A stretch of DNA of 5,061 nucleotides from a virus (Duplodnaviria; Heunggongvirae; Uroviricota; Caudoviricetes), in the IMG/VR virus record IMGVR_UViG_3300013741_000048, positions 1-5,061 of that record. The stretch is one strand, 5' to 3'. Numbering within the stretch: position 1 is the stretch's first letter; each line of letters begins with the position of its first letter. Shown in pieces: positions 1-4,219 of the stretch. The notes below the pieces were generated by a model. The model did no database searches and had not been told where the DNA came from. It saw only the letters and a program-made list of their open reading frames with translations. The position numbers were made by a program, and so were the translations under genes.

Positions 1-603
1 CAAAAGTGCCTGTAAGACAATAGGTTTTACCCTCTAACTCTATCGAAGCCCCTACATCAATAGGCAGCCTGGTCGCCAAACCATCCACCACCCCACTTTC
101 CAAGTCACATCCTGTGAAGTCTACTAATGCCTTATGTAGAGTTAAACTCTCATCTTCAGTAATAACCCCATCTTTAAGAATTTCCTTTACAAGTGCATAA
201 AGTTTTTTTCCTGGGTAGTTGTTCTTCAAAGCTCCATTTTGCTCAAGCCACCAATTAAGATATCTTATTTCTTCTTGAGTTAAGTTCCGATCAGCAATTA
301 ATCCTTTACATAGTCCATTAAGTAAATGGACATCTACATCCTTGGAGTAAAAATCAATTTCAGGGATATCAAGAATTTCCCTCTGTATTTGGAGAAGGCT
401 ATTTTTAAGGTCATCACGTTCTTCTGATGTGATTATTCCATCCGCAAGAATATCCGACACCCGTGCTGATAGACTTTTTATAACTCCATTATTGATAATC
501 TGCTTTGCTTCAAGTAACCATGTATCTAAGTAAAGAACCTCCTCTTCACGGACAACTCCATCTGCAANNNNNNNNNNTTAAAAGCGTAAAGCGCGTCTTC
601 CAT
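1..603 (-). CDS. Partial CDS (C-terminus beyond window start): hypothetical protein with four tandem TerB-like helical repeats followed by a BRCT-like motif; N-terminus interrupted by an N-run
   Basis: Hand translation of the minus strand gives an uninterrupted frame from 565 down to 2 (188 codons, no stop) in AT-rich DNA. It reads ADGVVREEEVLYLDTWL...ADGIITSEERDDL...ADRNLTQEEIRYL...KDGVITEDESLTLHKAL...IELEGKTYCLTGTF. Probable start is ATG at 601-603 (minus), 4 nt downstream of GGAGG (complement of 608-612), giving MEDALYAF before the gap at 568-577. It is absent from the ORF track because it has no Met and no stop inside the window. Domain names are from motif recognition, not a search. Confidence 0.6.
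568..577. other. Run of 10 N (assembly gap or masked bases) inside the N-terminal region of the minus-strand CDS
   Basis: Literal n characters. With exactly 10 bases the ATG at 601-603 is out of frame with the open frame below 565 (a TAA would be read at 578-580), so the true gap length is probably not 10. Confidence 0.95.
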
Positions 604-666
604 ACAACCTCCTTTTTTTGATAATCCTTGCACTCCTTGGCTACTCGTTCAAACCACATAAAGTTG

Positions 667-695
667 TTGACAATATTCAAAACCACAACTAAATT
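667..695 (+). promoter_or_regulatory. Candidate sigma70 promoter (TTGACA, 17-bp spacer, TAAATT) pointing toward the 68-aa ORF, flanked by direct repeats TTCAAA(A)CCACA at 648-658 and 676-687
   Basis: Perfect -35 hexamer TTGACA at 667-672, 17-nt spacer, TAAATT at 690-695 (4/6 match to TATAAT). Near-identical 11-12 nt direct repeats bracket the -35. Sequence-only prediction. Confidence 0.35.
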
Positions 696-786
696 ACAAC
701 TTAAAGATGTTAAAACAACGAACAGGCAGGACGCCCACGAAGTAGCCGCCTGGGGCATATGAAGTCCAGGATGATTCGTTAGCAAC

Positions 787-810
787 AAAAAAGCGCCCTA
801 CAGGACGCTT
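787..810 (-). terminator. Rho-independent terminator-like hairpin on the minus strand
   Basis: Plus strand reads AAAAAA GCGCCC TACA GGACGC TT. On the minus-strand transcript this is a GC-rich stem (one G-U wobble) with a 4-nt loop followed by a run of 6 U. On the plus strand the same stem has a C-A mismatch and no U-run. Confidence 0.5.
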
Positions 811-868
811 AGCTCTTTAACAATCTGGTCCCCATCAACAAGTAACTGATAACTTGAGGAGGTGTGAA

Positions 869-1075
869 ATGCACAAAACAGAACCAAAAATCGTCGCGCC
901 CGGATACACAAATGAGGAAATTTACGAGTGGATGGCAAAGAAGCTGGCAGCTATAAACCAGCTTCGTGAAGTGCTGTCTTATCGACAGGAAACAATAGAC
1001 TCCTTAAAAAAACTGGATCAGGAAATCACGGTTTTATCACAGGATGTTACTTTAGATATTGTGCAGACAAATTAG
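869..1075 (+). CDS. Small hypothetical protein (68 aa), predicted helical/coiled-coil
   Basis: ATG at 869 is 6 nt downstream of GAGGAGG (856-862); TAG stop at 1073-1075. The ORF track starts at the upstream in-frame TTG (854). Its 3' end overlaps the convergent 144-aa gene by 29 nt. No family recognised. Confidence 0.45.
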   Translation: MHKTEPKIVAPGYTNEEIYEWMAKKLAAINQLREVLSYRQETIDSLKKLDQEITVLSQDVTLDIVQTN

Positions 1076-1481
1076 GATCCCATTCATTTTCGTCAAAATC
1101 ATCAAAGTGATGAATTTGTGATCTCCAGTCTCGATAATCTAAAAATTTCTGGGCGGTTACGCTTATTTTATCAAGCATGAGTTCATCCTGAATTGAAAGA
1201 AGAAGTTCATCAAATTTCATCTCATTAATCTGTTTTGGCATCCAGTGATGCTTCATCAGAATAAGGTGAACCAGAGCTTTTTTCCCATTCAACTGATTAT
1301 AGGGAGTGCCGAATTTCTTCCGGTGCTCATGTAAGACAAGGTCCAGAAGAGTAAGTAATGTTGCCCTTGATTCAACTTTGCTTATTTCGACTGATGACAC
1401 TCCCCCACTGATTTCAATGCCCCGATACTTTCCAACATTTTCACAGTGGGATTTGTACAGCGTATAGATATTACCGGACAT
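1047..1481 (-). CDS. Hypothetical protein (144 aa), AT-rich, opposite orientation to the phage operon
   Basis: Complete ORF from ATG (complement of 1479-1481) to TAA (complement of 1047-1049), with a purine-rich stretch (AAAAGGAAAAG) just upstream. No family recognised from sequence. A weak R-x4-H motif (RSQIHH) near the C-terminus is HEPN-like but unconvincing. Confidence 0.6.
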   Translation of the reverse strand: MSGNIYTLYKSHCENVGKYRGIEISGGVSSVEISKVESRATLLTLLDLVLHEHRKKFGTPYNQLNGKKALVHLILMKHHWMPKQINEMKFDELLLSIQDELMLDKISVTAQKFLDYRDWRSQIHHFDDFDENEWDPNLSAQYLK

Positions 1482-1496
1482 TTCTTTTCCTTTTGC

Positions 1497-1544
1497 GTTG
1501 TTGGGGATAACCAGATTAACCGAATCCTTGTTGTTGGGGAATAA
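1497..1544. repeat. Two direct repeats GTTGTTGGGGA(A)TAA (1497-1510 and 1530-1544), 33 bp apart, immediately upstream of the 144-aa gene start
   Basis: Exact 14/15-nt match seen in sequence, with weaker similarity extending about 11 nt to the 3' side (CCAGATTAACC vs CTAGGTCCACC). The position fits operator or iteron-like sites in the promoter region of the minus-strand gene. Confidence 0.7.
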
Positions 1545-1765
1545 CTAGGTCCACCTCGCCTGATGTGGCTAAAAGCAGGCACATAACAGCTAAGTATTTT
1601 CAACCAGAGAGAATCCTTAGCGTTGTGGTGAATGCGGCTCAGCGCACGCGGGTTAAGGTTGAGGCTGACAGTCGACCTTCTGTGGATACCCACCCGCCTG
1701 GTGTGCAACCTTCGCCAGGCACCGGGAGGCACCCGGCACCACAACTTTATGCTGCGTGTAGTCTT

Positions 1766-1812
1766 GGCGGTACCAGCTTGTACCCTTGCTTCCGGCTGGT
1801 ACCGTCCTTTTT
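1766..1812 (+). terminator. Rho-independent terminator-like hairpin on the plus strand, upstream of yfdP
   Basis: Perfect 10-bp stem CGGTACCAGC (1768-1777) / GCTGGTACCG (1795-1804), extendable with G-U pairs, followed by C then TTTTT (1808-1812). There is no U-run on the opposite strand. Confidence 0.5.
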
Positions 1813-1901
1813 ACAAAACAGAGAAGAGCATCACCGGACGACGGGCTCATAACCCAATCCATCCGGGCGGCTGTCACCGCAGGTGTTCTTCTCTGTTTTG
1901 T
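1813..1901. repeat. Perfect 15-bp inverted repeat ACAAAACAGAGAAGA (1813-1827) / TCTTCTCTGTTTTGT (1887-1901) flanking a 59-bp GC-rich spacer
   Basis: Exact reverse-complement match read directly from the sequence. It starts right after the terminator U-tract and ends 48 nt before the yfdP start codon. Confidence 0.85.
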
Positions 1902-1949
1902 GGAGAAACCAACCGACCTTGCAGGGTCGATATGATGAGGAGCAGCAAA

Positions 1950-2312
1950 ATGGCTAGCGAACGCAGTACTGATGTGCAGGCATTTATCGGGGAGCTGGAC
2001 GGCGGCGTATTTGAAACCAAAATCGGCGCAGTTCTCAGTGAAGTCGCTTCCGGTGTGATGAACACGAAAACCAAAGGTAAGGTCTCACTCAACCTGGAAA
2101 TCGAACCATTTGATGAGAACCGTGTGAAAATCAAACACAAACTCTCATATGTTCGCCCGACTAACCGCGGGAAAATTTCCGAAGAAGACACCACCGAAAC
2201 GCCGATGTATGTCAATCGCGGTGGTCGTCTGACTATTCTGCAGGAAGACCAGGGACAATTACTGACTCTTGCCGGTGAACCTGACGGAAAACTCCGCGCA
2301 GCAGGTCATTAA
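1950..2312 (+). CDS. yfdP: YfdP-like prophage protein of unknown function (120 aa)
   Basis: ATG at 1950 is 7 nt downstream of AGGAG (1938-1942). The product MASERSTDVQAFIGELDGG... matches my recollection of E. coli CPS-53 YfdP in sequence and length. The longer track ORF (1632..2312) extends into the GC-rich island with a non-protein-like translation. Confidence 0.8.
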   Translation: MASERSTDVQAFIGELDGGVFETKIGAVLSEVASGVMNTKTKGKVSLNLEIEPFDENRVKIKHKLSYVRPTNRGKISEEDTTETPMYVNRGGRLTILQEDQGQLLTLAGEPDGKLRAAGH

Positions 2313-3866: not shown

Positions 3867-4219
3867 ATGTTTTCGAAATGGAAGGGTTTCTTCGCGGGAA
3901 ATGTGTACCGCGAGATCTGAAAGTGAATGAAACGGATGCTGAATACCTGGTGCGTAAATTCGATGCGCTTGAAGCTAAATGTGCAGCACAGGAAAACAAA
4001 GTAATACCAGTGTCAACTGAACTGCCACCAGCAAATGAAAGTGTTCTGTTATTTGATGCTAATGGAGAAGGCTGGCTGATTGGCTGGCGTTCTCTCTGGT
4101 ACACCTGGGGACAAAAAGAAACCGGAGAATGGCAGTGGACATTTCAGGTCGGGGACCTTGAAAACGTCAATATCACTCACTGGGCAGTAATGCCAAAAGC
4201 ACCGGAGGCTGGAGCATAA
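3857..4219 (+). CDS. yfdS: YfdS-like phage protein (120 aa; DUF551 as recalled)
   Basis: ATG 3857 follows GGAG (3845-3848). An alternative ATG at 3863 forms an ATGA overlap with the yfdR stop (3864-3866). The C-terminal region (WQWTF...ITHWAVMPKAPE) resembles DUF551 phage proteins. Confidence 0.8.
   Translation: MRMNVFEMEGFLRGKCVPRDLKVNETDAEYLVRKFDALEAKCAAQENKVIPVSTELPPANESVLLFDANGEGWLIGWRSLWYTWGQKETGEWQWTFQVGDLENVNITHWAVMPKAPEAGA

What the first reader, a model, noticed from the sequence alone, without database searches (positions are those of the whole stretch)
1..603. Uncalled long minus-strand ORF with four tandem ADG[VI][VI]xxEExxL repeats ending in a BRCT-like GKTYCLTGTF motif
The ORF track misses this frame because it has no Met and no stop in the window. 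Hand translation shows 188 stop-free codons in AT-rich DNA, which is very unlikely by chance. Four repeats spaced about 40-50 residues apart (ADGVVREEEVLYL, ADGIITSEERDDL, ADRNLTQEEIRYL, KDGVITEDESLTL) resemble TerB/DjlA-N-type helical units. The last residues in the window (LEGKTYCLTGTF) resemble the start of a BRCT fold as seen in NAD-dependent ligase C-termini. I do not recognise a TerB-repeat plus BRCT architecture as a characterised prophage protein; the rest of the protein lies left of the window.
Basis: partly seen in the sequence, partly recalled or inferred. Interest (0 to 1): 0.7.

Follow-up and report, generated by a model that had tools for sequence, protein, structure and literature searches.

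The report
Prophage immunity-region BRCT protein gene
The open frame is a real, already annotated 296-residue prophage gene of unknown function, with a duplicated helical domain and a DNA-ligase-type BRCT domain; it always travels next to the phage repressor gene, so it is most likely a lysogen-expressed protein that acts on DNA ends, possibly to exclude other phages.

Summary
Window 2-565 (minus strand) is 188 stop-free codons, and chance gives that with P about 3e-7. The start codon is in the window, at 601-603, beyond the N-run. In near-identical E. coli genomes the N-run stands for 59 bases, which puts that ATG in frame. The complete gene is 296 aa, RefSeq WP_000389078.1 'BRCT domain-containing protein', PHROG 3989 (unknown function).

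The BRCT call is confirmed (Pfam 29 bits against a cut-off of 21.3; fold matches). The four repeats are real: two tandem units of about 85 aa (hhalign E 1e-29), each made of two half-units. The TerB reading fails every test I could run; the likeness is one short helix-turn motif.

The 68-aa and 144-aa neighbours are not conserved partners. The conserved partner is the CI-type repressor, convergent and immediately downstream in 80 of 80 viral contigs, with overlapping 3' ends in 77. In Vibrio phage K139 and Pseudomonas phage phi1 the homologue lies directly downstream of cI. The same helical unit plus BRCT module is fused to a DEDDh exonuclease in the untested PADLOC candidate PDC-S48.

Best guess (about 0.4): a lysogen-expressed DNA-end binder that gives superinfection exclusion. 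The function is untested.

The parts
2..565 (-). Codons 30-217 of the 296-codon gene (188 stop-free codons). The remaining 79 codons, which hold the rest of the BRCT domain, lie left of the window.
   Evidence: The 188 residues are identical to L001/WP_000389078.1.
568..577 (.). N-run that stands for 59 real bases, covering codons 9-28 of the gene (codon 29 is split, its last two bases being window 567-566). This stretch includes most of helix 1 of the first helical unit.
   Evidence: Alignment with NZ_CP062811.1; translation of the complete gene.
578..603 (-). Start codon ATG (601-603) and the first 8 codons, MEDALYAF.
   Evidence: The start is conserved in all related loci.
608..612 (-). Shine-Dalgarno sequence GGAGG, preceded by a conserved A-run.
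   Evidence: Read from the sequence; conserved in 56 distinct upstream sequences.
624..652 (-). Candidate promoter of the gene: -35 TTGAAC (652-647), a 17-nt spacer, then TGc + AAGGAT (632-624). The two blocks are conserved while the spacer varies.
   Evidence: Phylogenetic footprint. Calling it a promoter is an inference; the consensus scan did not flag it.
653..667 (.). Operator-like site ACAACTTTATGTGGT (read on the minus strand). It abuts the candidate -35 of the gene and overlaps the -35 of the opposing PL-like promoter.
   Evidence: Present with at most 2 changes in 80 of 80 related loci, 63-69 nt before the ATG, and identical in 77 of them. A related site lies in the cI/cro intergenic region of L001.
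667..695 (+). PL-like promoter (TTGACA, 17 nt, TAAATT) pointing away from the gene towards the 68-aa gene, yfdP-yfdT, xis and int.
   Evidence: 10 of 12 matches. It is flanked by the two operator-like sites.
696..710 (.). Second operator-like site, ACAACTTAAAGATGT.
359..565 (-). Helical unit 1, residues 30-98 of unit 10-98, with motifs ADGVVREEE (565-539) and ADGIITSEE (445-419).
95..358 (-). Helical unit 2, residues 99-186, with motifs ADRNLTQEE (295-269) and KDGVITEDE (175-149).
41..94 (-). Linker, residues 187-204 (GVVDGLATRLPIDVGASI). It is highly conserved within Enterobacterales and has low model confidence.
2..40 (-). First 13 residues of the BRCT domain (ELEGKTYCLTGTF, residues 205-217), including the Thr214-Gly215 phosphate-pocket motif.

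Best explanation
Window 1-603 holds the 5' two-thirds of an intact 296-codon gene. The gene belongs to the immunity cassette (cro - OR - cI - this gene - OL/PL) of a KplE1/CPS-53-like lambdoid prophage.

The protein has three parts:
1. Two tandem four-helix units of about 85 residues. This is a distinct domain with no Pfam model, and it is not TerB by the tests run here.
2. A conserved linker.
3. One BRCT domain of the LigA/RFC1 class, with the phosphate pocket intact (Thr214-Gly215, Arg222, Lys265).

Proposed working (inferred, not shown):
- In the lysogen the gene is transcribed from a weak promoter that abuts a CI operator. The geometry resembles lambda OR2/PRM, so CI may activate it.
- In other phages the homologue sits directly behind cI, apparently in the same operon.
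- The BRCT domain binds 5'-phosphorylated DNA ends or nicks, such as those of incoming or replicating phage DNA.
- The helical units mediate oligomerisation, partner binding or ligand binding.
- The outcome is exclusion of superinfecting phages. It would be a nuclease-less relative of the PADLOC defence candidate PDC-S48.

Shown here: the gene is real, its domain make-up, its linkage to the repressor, and its family relationships.
Inferred: when it is expressed, that it binds DNA ends, and the exclusion phenotype.
For: Real gene under purifying selection:
-.

BRCT domain:
- Pfam score above the cut-off.
- The best solved-structure sequence match is the RFC1 BRCT.
- NCBIfam matches cover only the LigA and PolIII-epsilon C-terminal BRCT.
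- T214, G215, R222 and K265 are each kept in 76-81 of 82 relatives about 30% identical to one another.
- They sit where the canonical Ser/Thr-Gly and alpha2-Lys pocket lies (PMC10386641).
- RFC1-type BRCT regions prefer 5'-P DNA (PMC9293004, citing Kobayashi 2006).

Linkage to the lysogeny module:
- The gene is convergent with a CI-like HTH+S24 repressor, with overlapping ends, in E. coli, Citrobacter and Serratia.
- The repressor is convergent and immediately downstream in 80 of 80 IMG/VR contigs, with 3' ends overlapping by 9-18 nt in 77.
- The homologue lies directly downstream of cI, in the same direction, in Vibrio phage K139. That record annotates a lysogenic promoter PL upstream of cI, followed by cI-orf2-glo-int, and glo is an exclusion gene.
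- The same arrangement occurs in Pseudomonas phage phi1, a metagenomic relative and a Pantoea P2-like prophage, where the order is CI - gene - int.

Promoter and operator footprint:
-.

Accessory character:
- GC is 38.5% against about 46-50% in the flanks.
- 47 of 5426 E. coli genomes carry the gene.
- Strain RM9088 has the same cI/cro type with the gene cleanly missing.

Defence link:
- 103 of 150 family representatives hit PADLOC PDC-S48.
- The PDC-S48 profile is DEDDh exonuclease + helical unit + BRCT.
- 17 of 150 representatives carry RNase_T.
- The same helical domain heads a 1059-aa protein immediately upstream of a Druantia DruE helicase, E 1e-179.
Against: - No experiment on any member was found. 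PDC-S48 is itself only a computational candidate, and no paper in the library mentions it.
- This protein lacks the exonuclease. It matches only positions 239-377 of the 411-position PDC-S48 profile, so it has no evident effector.
- In the E. coli type the gene is convergent with cI rather than co-transcribed with it. Its promoter is inferred from conservation only, and CI could repress it rather than activate it.
- Position next to the repressor is equally expected for a regulator of induction. A 2026 preprint reads cI- or BRCT-based modules in Roseobacter prophages as DNA-damage-responsive regulators (10.64898/2026.07.02.736140).
- DNA-end binding by this BRCT domain is extrapolated from RFC1/LigA.
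Confidence: 0.4

Rival explanations
1. Lysis-lysogeny regulator. The protein senses DNA damage (nicks, ends or a phosphorylated partner) through its BRCT domain. It then tunes repressor stability or prophage induction as part of the immunity circuit.
For: - It is invariably adjacent to the repressor gene in unrelated phage groups.
- Its 3' end overlaps that of cI, which would allow antisense or transcriptional interference.
- A preprint interprets BRCT-containing modules that replace quorum-sensing modules in Roseobacter prophages as DNA-damage-responsive regulators.
Against: - RM9088 keeps the same cI/cro/operator set without the gene. In all, 72 E. coli genomes carry the cI/cro type and 47 carry the gene. 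The circuit therefore appears to persist without it.
- The partner repressors are of three different kinds: S24 LexA-like, 186-type CI, and a short HTH_3 protein. That argues against a specific effect on S24 autocleavage.
- The helical unit plus BRCT module is also fused to exonucleases, and the helical domain alone also sits next to DruE. Those contexts are not regulatory.
Confidence: 0.25
2. Phage DNA-metabolism or anti-defence factor. The protein either protects or processes the phage's own ends or nicks (cos ends, integration or excision intermediates, a ligase cofactor). Alternatively it acts as a nuclease-less decoy that blocks host PDC-S48-like nucleases.
For: - The BRCT domain is of the ligase/clamp-loader class.
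- In P2-like prophages the gene lies between cI and int.
- It is a truncated relative of a nuclease-bearing candidate defence protein.
Against: - It lies outside the early-left recombination operon and points the opposite way.
- Its distribution is patchy and its DNA is AT-rich, so it does not look like a core function.
- Placement in the lysogenic transcription unit fits poorly with a function needed early in infection.
Confidence: 0.15
3. One reading: the N-terminal repeats are TerB/DjlA-N-type units, so the protein would be a TerB-like (metal or membrane-stress) sensor fused to BRCT.
For: - The motif h-x-DG-x-[IV]-[TSD]-x-x-E is shared with TerB.
- TerB is the commonest weak Pfam hit in the family: 14 of 150 full-length members at E<=0.01 and 7 of 24 N-terminal domains at E<=1, best E about 1e-4. 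DUF533, a TerB relative to my knowledge, appears in 3-4 members.
Against: - All those hits fall below the Pfam cut-off and cover only about 27 residues of the 118-position model. The same motif also draws EF-hand and SHOCT hits.
- The window protein itself has no TerB hit at E<=1.
- hhalign of the domain profile against TerB and DjlA gives probability <=1.5%.
- An HMM search of PDB sequences finds no TerB.
Confidence: 0.1
4. The frame is a pseudogene or a chance open frame.
For: There is an N-run inside the frame, and the gene runs off the window.
Against: - P(no stop) is 3e-7.
- The frame shows coding periodicity, and pN is far below pS.
- The gene is intact and identical in length in 47 E. 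coli genomes and hundreds of relatives.
- The sequence that fills the gap in near-identical genomes is in frame.
Confidence: 0.01

Closest known systems
Vibrio phage K139 Orf2 (NP_536630, 301 aa; also kp3 of phage Kappa)
   Same: It is a full-length homologue: 32.6% identity over 95% of the protein, with the same two helical units plus BRCT. It lies next to the repressor gene in the lysogeny module, and the next gene, glo, is an exclusion gene.
   Different: K139 is a P2-like phage, and orf2 lies directly downstream of cI in the same direction (cI-orf2-glo-int). Here the gene is convergent with cI and has its own promoter region at OL. The function of Orf2 is not annotated in the record, and I could not read the 1999 paper.
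PADLOC phage-defence candidate PDC-S48 (PDLC05027/05028)
   Same: It shares the helical unit and the BRCT domain. This protein hits the profile at E 2.4e-7, and 103 of 150 family representatives hit it.
   Different: The PDC-S48 profile begins with a DEDDh (RNase_T) exonuclease, positions 1 to about 185. This protein lacks that domain and has a second helical unit instead. PDC-S48 is an untested candidate.
BRCT domains of NAD-dependent DNA ligase LigA and of RFC1 (p140)
   Same: These are the best sequence and fold matches. The GxTxxxTG...R...G(S/R)K signature is conserved.
   Different: There is no ligase or clamp-loader module. Some sources label relatives 'NAD-dependent DNA ligase', which is an over-annotation from the BRCT domain alone. 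A family-specific insert, SSRDWxFSSH with an invariant Trp257, precedes helix alpha2.
Lambda rexA/rexB, and stk of phage 933W: exclusion genes carried inside the immunity region. This comparison rests on my own knowledge.
   Same: The position is the same, between cI and OL/PL. Lysogenic expression is probable, the gene is dispensable for the switch, and its base composition is foreign.
   Different: There is no sequence or fold relationship. The orientation is opposite to cI, and the phenotype is untested.
TerB (PF05099) and the DjlA N-terminal domain
   Same: Both have a short DG-x-[IV]-[TS]-x-x-E helix-turn motif and an all-helical build.
   Different: The domain fails the Pfam cut-off, the hhalign comparison and the fold comparison.

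Membership tests
BRCT domain (Pfam PF00533) | Score above the Pfam gathering cut-off | tested here: met
   29.0 bits against a cut-off of 21.3, residues 206-290 of the full-length protein. 94 of 150 family representatives also match.
BRCT domain (Pfam PF00533) | A beta-alpha-beta-beta-alpha-beta-alpha fold that matches solved BRCT domains | tested here: met
Phosphate-binding BRCT of the LigA/RFC1 class | A Ser/Thr-Gly motif after beta1 and a Lys at the N-terminus of alpha2, plus the RFC1-type Arg | tested here: met
   T214 is kept in 76 of 82 relatives, G215 in 81, R222 in 77 and K265 in 81. The pocket definition is from PMC10386641. Equivalence to the RFC1 residues rests on the HMMER alignment and my own knowledge.
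Phosphate-binding BRCT of the LigA/RFC1 class | Preferential binding to 5'-phosphorylated DNA ends or nicks | not testable with these tools
   This needs gel-shift or fluorescence-anisotropy assays with purified protein.
NAD-dependent DNA ligase LigA (the label some sources give to relatives) | Adenylation, OB, Zn-finger and HhH domains, and a full-length model score | tested here: not met
   Only the C-terminal BRCT region of the LigA models is matched, at 20-30 bits against cut-offs of 369-1051.
TerB (Pfam PF05099) / DjlA N-terminal domain | Score above the Pfam gathering cut-off over the whole domain | tested here: not met
   This protein has no hit at E<=1. Its relatives reach at most 23 bits against 24.4, covering profile positions 8-35 of 118 only.
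TerB (Pfam PF05099) / DjlA N-terminal domain | Profile-level homology to bona fide TerB or DjlA | tested here: not met
   hhalign of the 24-sequence domain profile gives probability 1.5% against E. coli DjlA and 0.7% against Sakai TerB. The targets were single sequences, so this test is weak.
TerB (Pfam PF05099) / DjlA N-terminal domain | Fold closest to TerB structures | tested here: inconclusive
PADLOC candidate PDC-S48 | HMM match | tested here: met
   E 2.4e-7, but only profile positions 239-377 of 411 are covered.
PADLOC candidate PDC-S48 | N-terminal DEDDh exonuclease domain | tested here: not met
   This protein has no RNase_T or DEDDh match. The exonuclease-bearing members match profile positions 1 to about 260.
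PADLOC candidate PDC-S48 | Demonstrated protection against phage | not testable with these tools
   No paper in the library mentions PDC-S48.
Immunity-region accessory (exclusion) genes of temperate phages, rexAB-like by position | Located between the repressor gene and OL/PL, or in the lysogenic operon | tested here: met
Immunity-region accessory (exclusion) genes of temperate phages, rexAB-like by position | Dispensable for the immunity switch | tested here: met
   RM9088 carries the same cI/cro/OL with the gene deleted. 72 genomes carry the immunity type and 47 carry the gene.
Immunity-region accessory (exclusion) genes of temperate phages, rexAB-like by position | Expressed in the lysogen and excludes other phages | not testable with these tools
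   The only evidence here is a conserved promoter/operator footprint and the K139 record's annotation of a lysogenic promoter and transcription start upstream of cI-orf2-glo-int.

The most novel reading that the evidence does not exclude
The duplicated four-helix unit is a so-far undescribed defence-associated sensor or adaptor domain. It is found fused to BRCT in prophage immunity cassettes, to DEDDh exonuclease + BRCT in PDC-S48, and at the head of a large protein partnered with DruE. On this reading the nuclease-less prophage form is a new kind of repressor-coupled superinfection-exclusion protein. It would recognise 5'-phosphorylated ends or nicks of incoming phage DNA, and CI would switch it on from a PRM-like promoter at OL.
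Probability: 0.3. Interest if true: 0.65.

Novelty: new variant of a known kind. Interest (0 to 1): 0.5.

Why it matters
If the best explanation holds, a common but ignored prophage gene family would gain a function. The helical domain has 976 clusters at 50% identity, and members occur in Enterobacterales, Vibrio and Pseudomonas phages. It would be a BRCT-based way for lysogens to recognise foreign DNA ends. It would also give the first handle on the untested PADLOC candidate PDC-S48 and on a helical domain that also occurs beside a Druantia helicase.

The conserved arrangement of operator and weak promoter would be a second example of a lambda PRM-type repressor-activated promoter, this time at OL.

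If the regulatory rival holds instead, the protein would be a new DNA-damage input to the lysis-lysogeny switch.

Either way the gene is easy to test: one gene, a known host and available phages.

Tried and rejected
Searches that found nothing or only generic matches:
- TerB homology. Pfam on this protein, on 150 and 24 relatives, and on 10 N-terminal domains one by one gave only sub-threshold hits to a 27-residue motif.
- hhalign against DjlA and TerB was insignificant.
- An HMM of the N-terminal domain against PDB sequences found nothing relevant.
- Foldseek against viral structures found nothing at E<=0.001.
- Rfam gave no match anywhere in the window.

Tools or papers that were not available:
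- The AFDB Foldseek library was not available.
- The search for related loci with the diverse alignment A6 failed because no conserved stretch was long enough. I used the closer alignment A2 instead.
- The 1999 K139 control-region paper and the 2010 RFC1 BRCT-DNA paper are not held. Two K139-family papers say nothing about orf2.
- Literature searches for PDC-S48, and for BRCT together with anti-phage, prophage or exclusion terms, found no functional study.

Ideas tested and dropped:
- Co-occurrence with the 68-aa and ECs1072 genes is rejected: 13 of 80 loci have them.
- An IS3 insertion explaining the N-run is rejected: in the one genome that has an IS3 nearby, it sits in the 68-aa gene.
- Contexts of the exonuclease-fused and single-unit relatives lay mostly on contigs too short to be informative.
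Full report
**1. The observation**

On the minus strand, window 2-565 reads as 188 codons without a stop.
- The other five frames of the same stretch have 6-22 stops.
- Given the base composition (38.5% GC), the chance of 188 stop-free codons is 3.4e-7, and none of 20,000 shuffles was open.
- GC at codon positions 1/2/3 is 0.55/0.31/0.29.

The frame does have a start in the window: ATG at 601-603, preceded by GGAGG at 608-612. It looks out of frame only because of the ten N at 568-577. Twelve complete E. coli genomes match window 1-1560 at 98-99.6% identity over 99% of the query. In eleven of them the match spans 1607-1609 bases instead of 1560; the twelfth is longer because of an IS3 insertion. 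The alignment shows that the N-run stands for 59 bases. With them the ATG is in frame and the gene is 296 codons, with no stop or frameshift.

RefSeq already annotates it as WP_000389078.1, 'BRCT domain-containing protein'. PHROGs holds it as family 3989, function unknown, matched end to end at E 1.5e-128. So 'uncalled' reflects the ORF lister, which omits ORFs that run off the window.

Against homologues from Citrobacter, Serratia, Pseudomonas lundensis, Kosakonia and Pantoea, synonymous sites are saturated (pS about 0.8) while pN is 0.17-0.34. The gene is under purifying selection.

**2. Anatomy of the protein**

The motifs at residues 30, 70, 120 and 160 mark a genuine duplication.
- In an alignment of 82 relatives about 30% identical to one another, residues 10-98 and 99-186 match each other at hhalign probability 99.8%, E 1e-29.
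- Each unit is itself made of two weaker half-repeats, E about 1e-7.
- AlphaFold2 with a diverse alignment models residues 10-186 at pLDDT 92.7 and pTM 0.89, as two four-helix bundles.
- The residues conserved across the family are G-x3-G-x3-D-x6-E-x3-L-x2-W in the first half of each unit and (W)P ... D-G-x5-E in the second half.

The C-terminus is a BRCT domain.
- Pfam PF00533 scores 29 bits against a cut-off of 21.3.
- The best solved-structure sequence match is the RFC1 BRCT.
- NCBIfam matches cover only the BRCT ends of the LigA and PolIII-epsilon models.
- Thr214-Gly215, Arg222 and Lys265 are almost invariant. They sit where the canonical phosphate pocket lies: Ser/Thr-Gly after beta1 and Lys at the start of alpha2 (PMC10386641).
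- RFC1-type BRCT regions bind 5'-phosphorylated recessed DNA better than 5'-OH DNA (PMC9293004, citing Kobayashi 2006).
- That this BRCT domain binds DNA ends is therefore an inference, not a result.

**3. The TerB idea**

I tested it in five ways, and none supports it.
- Pfam gives no TerB hit for this protein at E<=1.
- Among relatives, TerB is the commonest weak hit: 14 of 150 at E<=0.01 and 7 of 24 at E<=1. The scores stay below the cut-off (<=23 bits against 24.4) and cover only about 27 residues, profile positions 8-35 of 118. The same motif also attracts EF-hand, SHOCT and DUF533 models.
- hhalign of the domain profile gives probability 1.5% against E. coli DjlA and 0.7% against TerB of strain Sakai.
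- An HMM search of PDB sequences finds no TerB.

The likeness is a helix C-cap followed by an N-cap box (DG-x-[IV]-[TS]-x-x-E). That motif can recur for structural reasons; this last point is my inference. No Pfam model covers the domain.

**4. Where the gene sits**

The window is a KplE1/CPS-53-like lambdoid prophage, with yfdP, yfdQ, yfdR, yfdS, yfdT, xis and int to the right. Immediately left of the window lies a 228-aa HTH + Peptidase_S24 repressor. It is convergent with the gene, and their 3' ends overlap by 18 nt. Beyond it come cro, ymfL and the replication genes.

Upstream of the gene, two operator-like 15-mers (window 653-667 and 696-710) flank a PL-like promoter at 667-695 that points rightwards. 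A related 15-mer lies in the cI/cro intergenic region. Shuffled sequence gives none. The gene therefore lies inside the immunity cassette, in the order OR - cI - gene - OL/PL. To my knowledge that is where lambda carries rexAB.

The linkage to the repressor is general.
- It holds in Citrobacter and Serratia prophages.
- In 80 of 80 IMG/VR contigs with relatives (68-100% identity) the repressor is convergent and immediately downstream. In 77 of them the 3' ends overlap by 9, 15 or 18 nt.
- Only 13 of those 80 carry the 68-aa or the ECs1072 gene, so these are not partners.
- Distant homologues keep the association in other layouts. In Vibrio phage K139 the order is cI-orf2-glo-int; the record annotates a lysogenic promoter upstream of cI, and glo is an exclusion gene.
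- In Pseudomonas phage phi1 and in a metagenomic relative the gene follows the repressor directly.
- In a Pantoea P2-like prophage the order is 186-type CI, gene, int. In Kosakonia it is HTH_3, a 207-aa gene, the gene, int.

The gene is nevertheless dispensable for the switch.
- E. coli RM9088 has the same cI/cro/OL type with the gene missing. Its first 35 or so bases, its ribosome-binding site and its overlapped 3' end remain.
- 72 of 5426 complete E. coli genomes carry this cI/cro type, and 47 carry the gene.

**5. Expression signal**

In 56 distinct upstream sequences the following blocks are conserved, separated by variable stretches:
- GTCAACAACTTTATGTGGT, followed directly by TTGA(T/A)(T/C);
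- a variable 17-nt spacer;
- TG(C/T)AAGGAT;
- an A-run, then GGAGG, then ATG.

This is the footprint of a -35 hexamer plus an extended -10 element. The -10 is weak. The operator abuts the -35 with its centre near -43, the same geometry as lambda OR2 at PRM. I infer that the promoter depends on CI and is active in lysogens. That would match the position directly behind cI seen in other phages, but nothing here shows it.

**6. Relatives and what they suggest**

The helical domain alone finds 976 clusters at 50% identity. The architectures are:
- two units + BRCT, about 300 aa, the majority;
- one unit + BRCT, about 200 aa;
- DEDDh exonuclease + units + BRCT, about 450-470 aa, 17 of 150;
- a version with a hydrophobic, apparently membrane-spanning N-terminal segment (my reading of the sequence);
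- two units heading proteins of about 1060 aa.

103 of 150 representatives hit the PADLOC 'phage defence candidate' PDC-S48. The PDC-S48 profile is exonuclease + unit + BRCT. The window protein matches only positions 239-377 of 411, so it is a nuclease-less relative. One of the 1060-aa proteins lies directly upstream of a Druantia DruE helicase (E 1e-179), with a gene carrying an McrBC Pfam hit two genes further downstream.

No paper in the library mentions PDC-S48 or assigns a function to any family member. One 2026 preprint mentions cI- or BRCT-based modules in Roseobacter prophages and presumes them to be DNA-damage responsive.

**7. Verdict**

Four things are solid:
- the gene is real;
- the BRCT call is right;
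- the repeats are real, but they are not TerB;
- the gene belongs to the repressor cassette, not to its right-hand neighbours.

The function is unknown. I rank the possibilities as follows:
- Lysogen-expressed DNA-end binder that excludes superinfecting phage: about 0.4. It fits the position, the dispensability, the foreign composition and the defence-linked relatives.
- Regulator of induction: about 0.25.
- DNA-metabolism or anti-defence role: about 0.15.

The family is catalogued but uncharacterised, and the specific protein is identical to a RefSeq entry. The novelty lies in the function and in the helical domain, not in the existence of the gene.

Noticed in passing
window 568-577: The 10-N run is not a length-true mask. 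In near-identical genomes it replaces 59 bases, so coordinates to its right are shifted by 49 relative to the real sequence.
   Followed up: yes
window 653-710: An OL/PL-like control region: two operator-like 15-mers flank a TTGACA-17-TAAATT promoter that faces the early-left operon. A related 15-mer lies in the cI/cro intergenic region of the reference locus (L001 7025-7039).
   Followed up: yes
window 722-738 and 791-810 (minus strand): Two terminator-like hairpins on the minus strand lie upstream of the gene's promoter region; the one at 810-791 has 8 pairs followed by a T-run. They would stop leftward transcripts coming from the ECs1072 gene before these reach the OL region.
   Followed up: no
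window 869-1075 (+) and 1047-1481 (-): A 68-aa gene (PHROG 1744, unknown function) and the 144-aa ECs1072-family gene (NF033230, PHROG 5286, unknown function) are convergent, with 3' ends overlapping by 29 nt, and both are AT-rich. DNA from this part of the window (about 713-1560) is found in over 1500 E. coli genomes, far more than carry the BRCT gene. In one genome an IS3 interrupts the 68-aa gene (L033).
   Followed up: partly
window 1503-1555: A direct repeat, GGGGATAACCAGATTAACC / GGGAATAACTAGGTCCACC, 34 nt apart, lies just upstream of the ECs1072 start. It may be a regulatory site.
   Followed up: no
window 1560-1950: A GC-rich stretch (54-56%) before yfdP holds a 25-nt inverted repeat, 1813-1837 / 1877-1901, 84% complementary with 39 nt between the arms. 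RefSeq annotates a frameshifted hypothetical pseudogene here. The 226-aa ORF listed from 1632 is an artefact of read-through into yfdP, whose real start is the ATG at 1950. There is no Rfam match.
   Followed up: partly
L032 (E. coli RM9088), about 3885-4040: This is a natural deletion variant of the same immunity cassette. The BRCT gene is replaced by about 80 nt of unrelated sequence, but its promoter, RBS and first codons and its 3' overlap with cI are kept.
   Followed up: yes
L019 2262-10159: A 1059-aa protein whose N-terminus carries the same two helical units sits directly upstream of a DruE helicase, with a gene carrying an McrBC Pfam hit two genes further downstream. It matches no PADLOC Druantia accessory-protein (Dru) model, only a weak PDC-S48 hit over its N-terminal units, so this may be an undescribed Druantia-like variant.
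   Followed up: partly
L011 (Sulfurimonas phage SNW-1) 3929-4986: A 207-aa relative with one unit plus BRCT is annotated 'DNA polymerase'. It is divergent from a cII-like gene and is followed by a thermonuclease-family gene.
   Followed up: no
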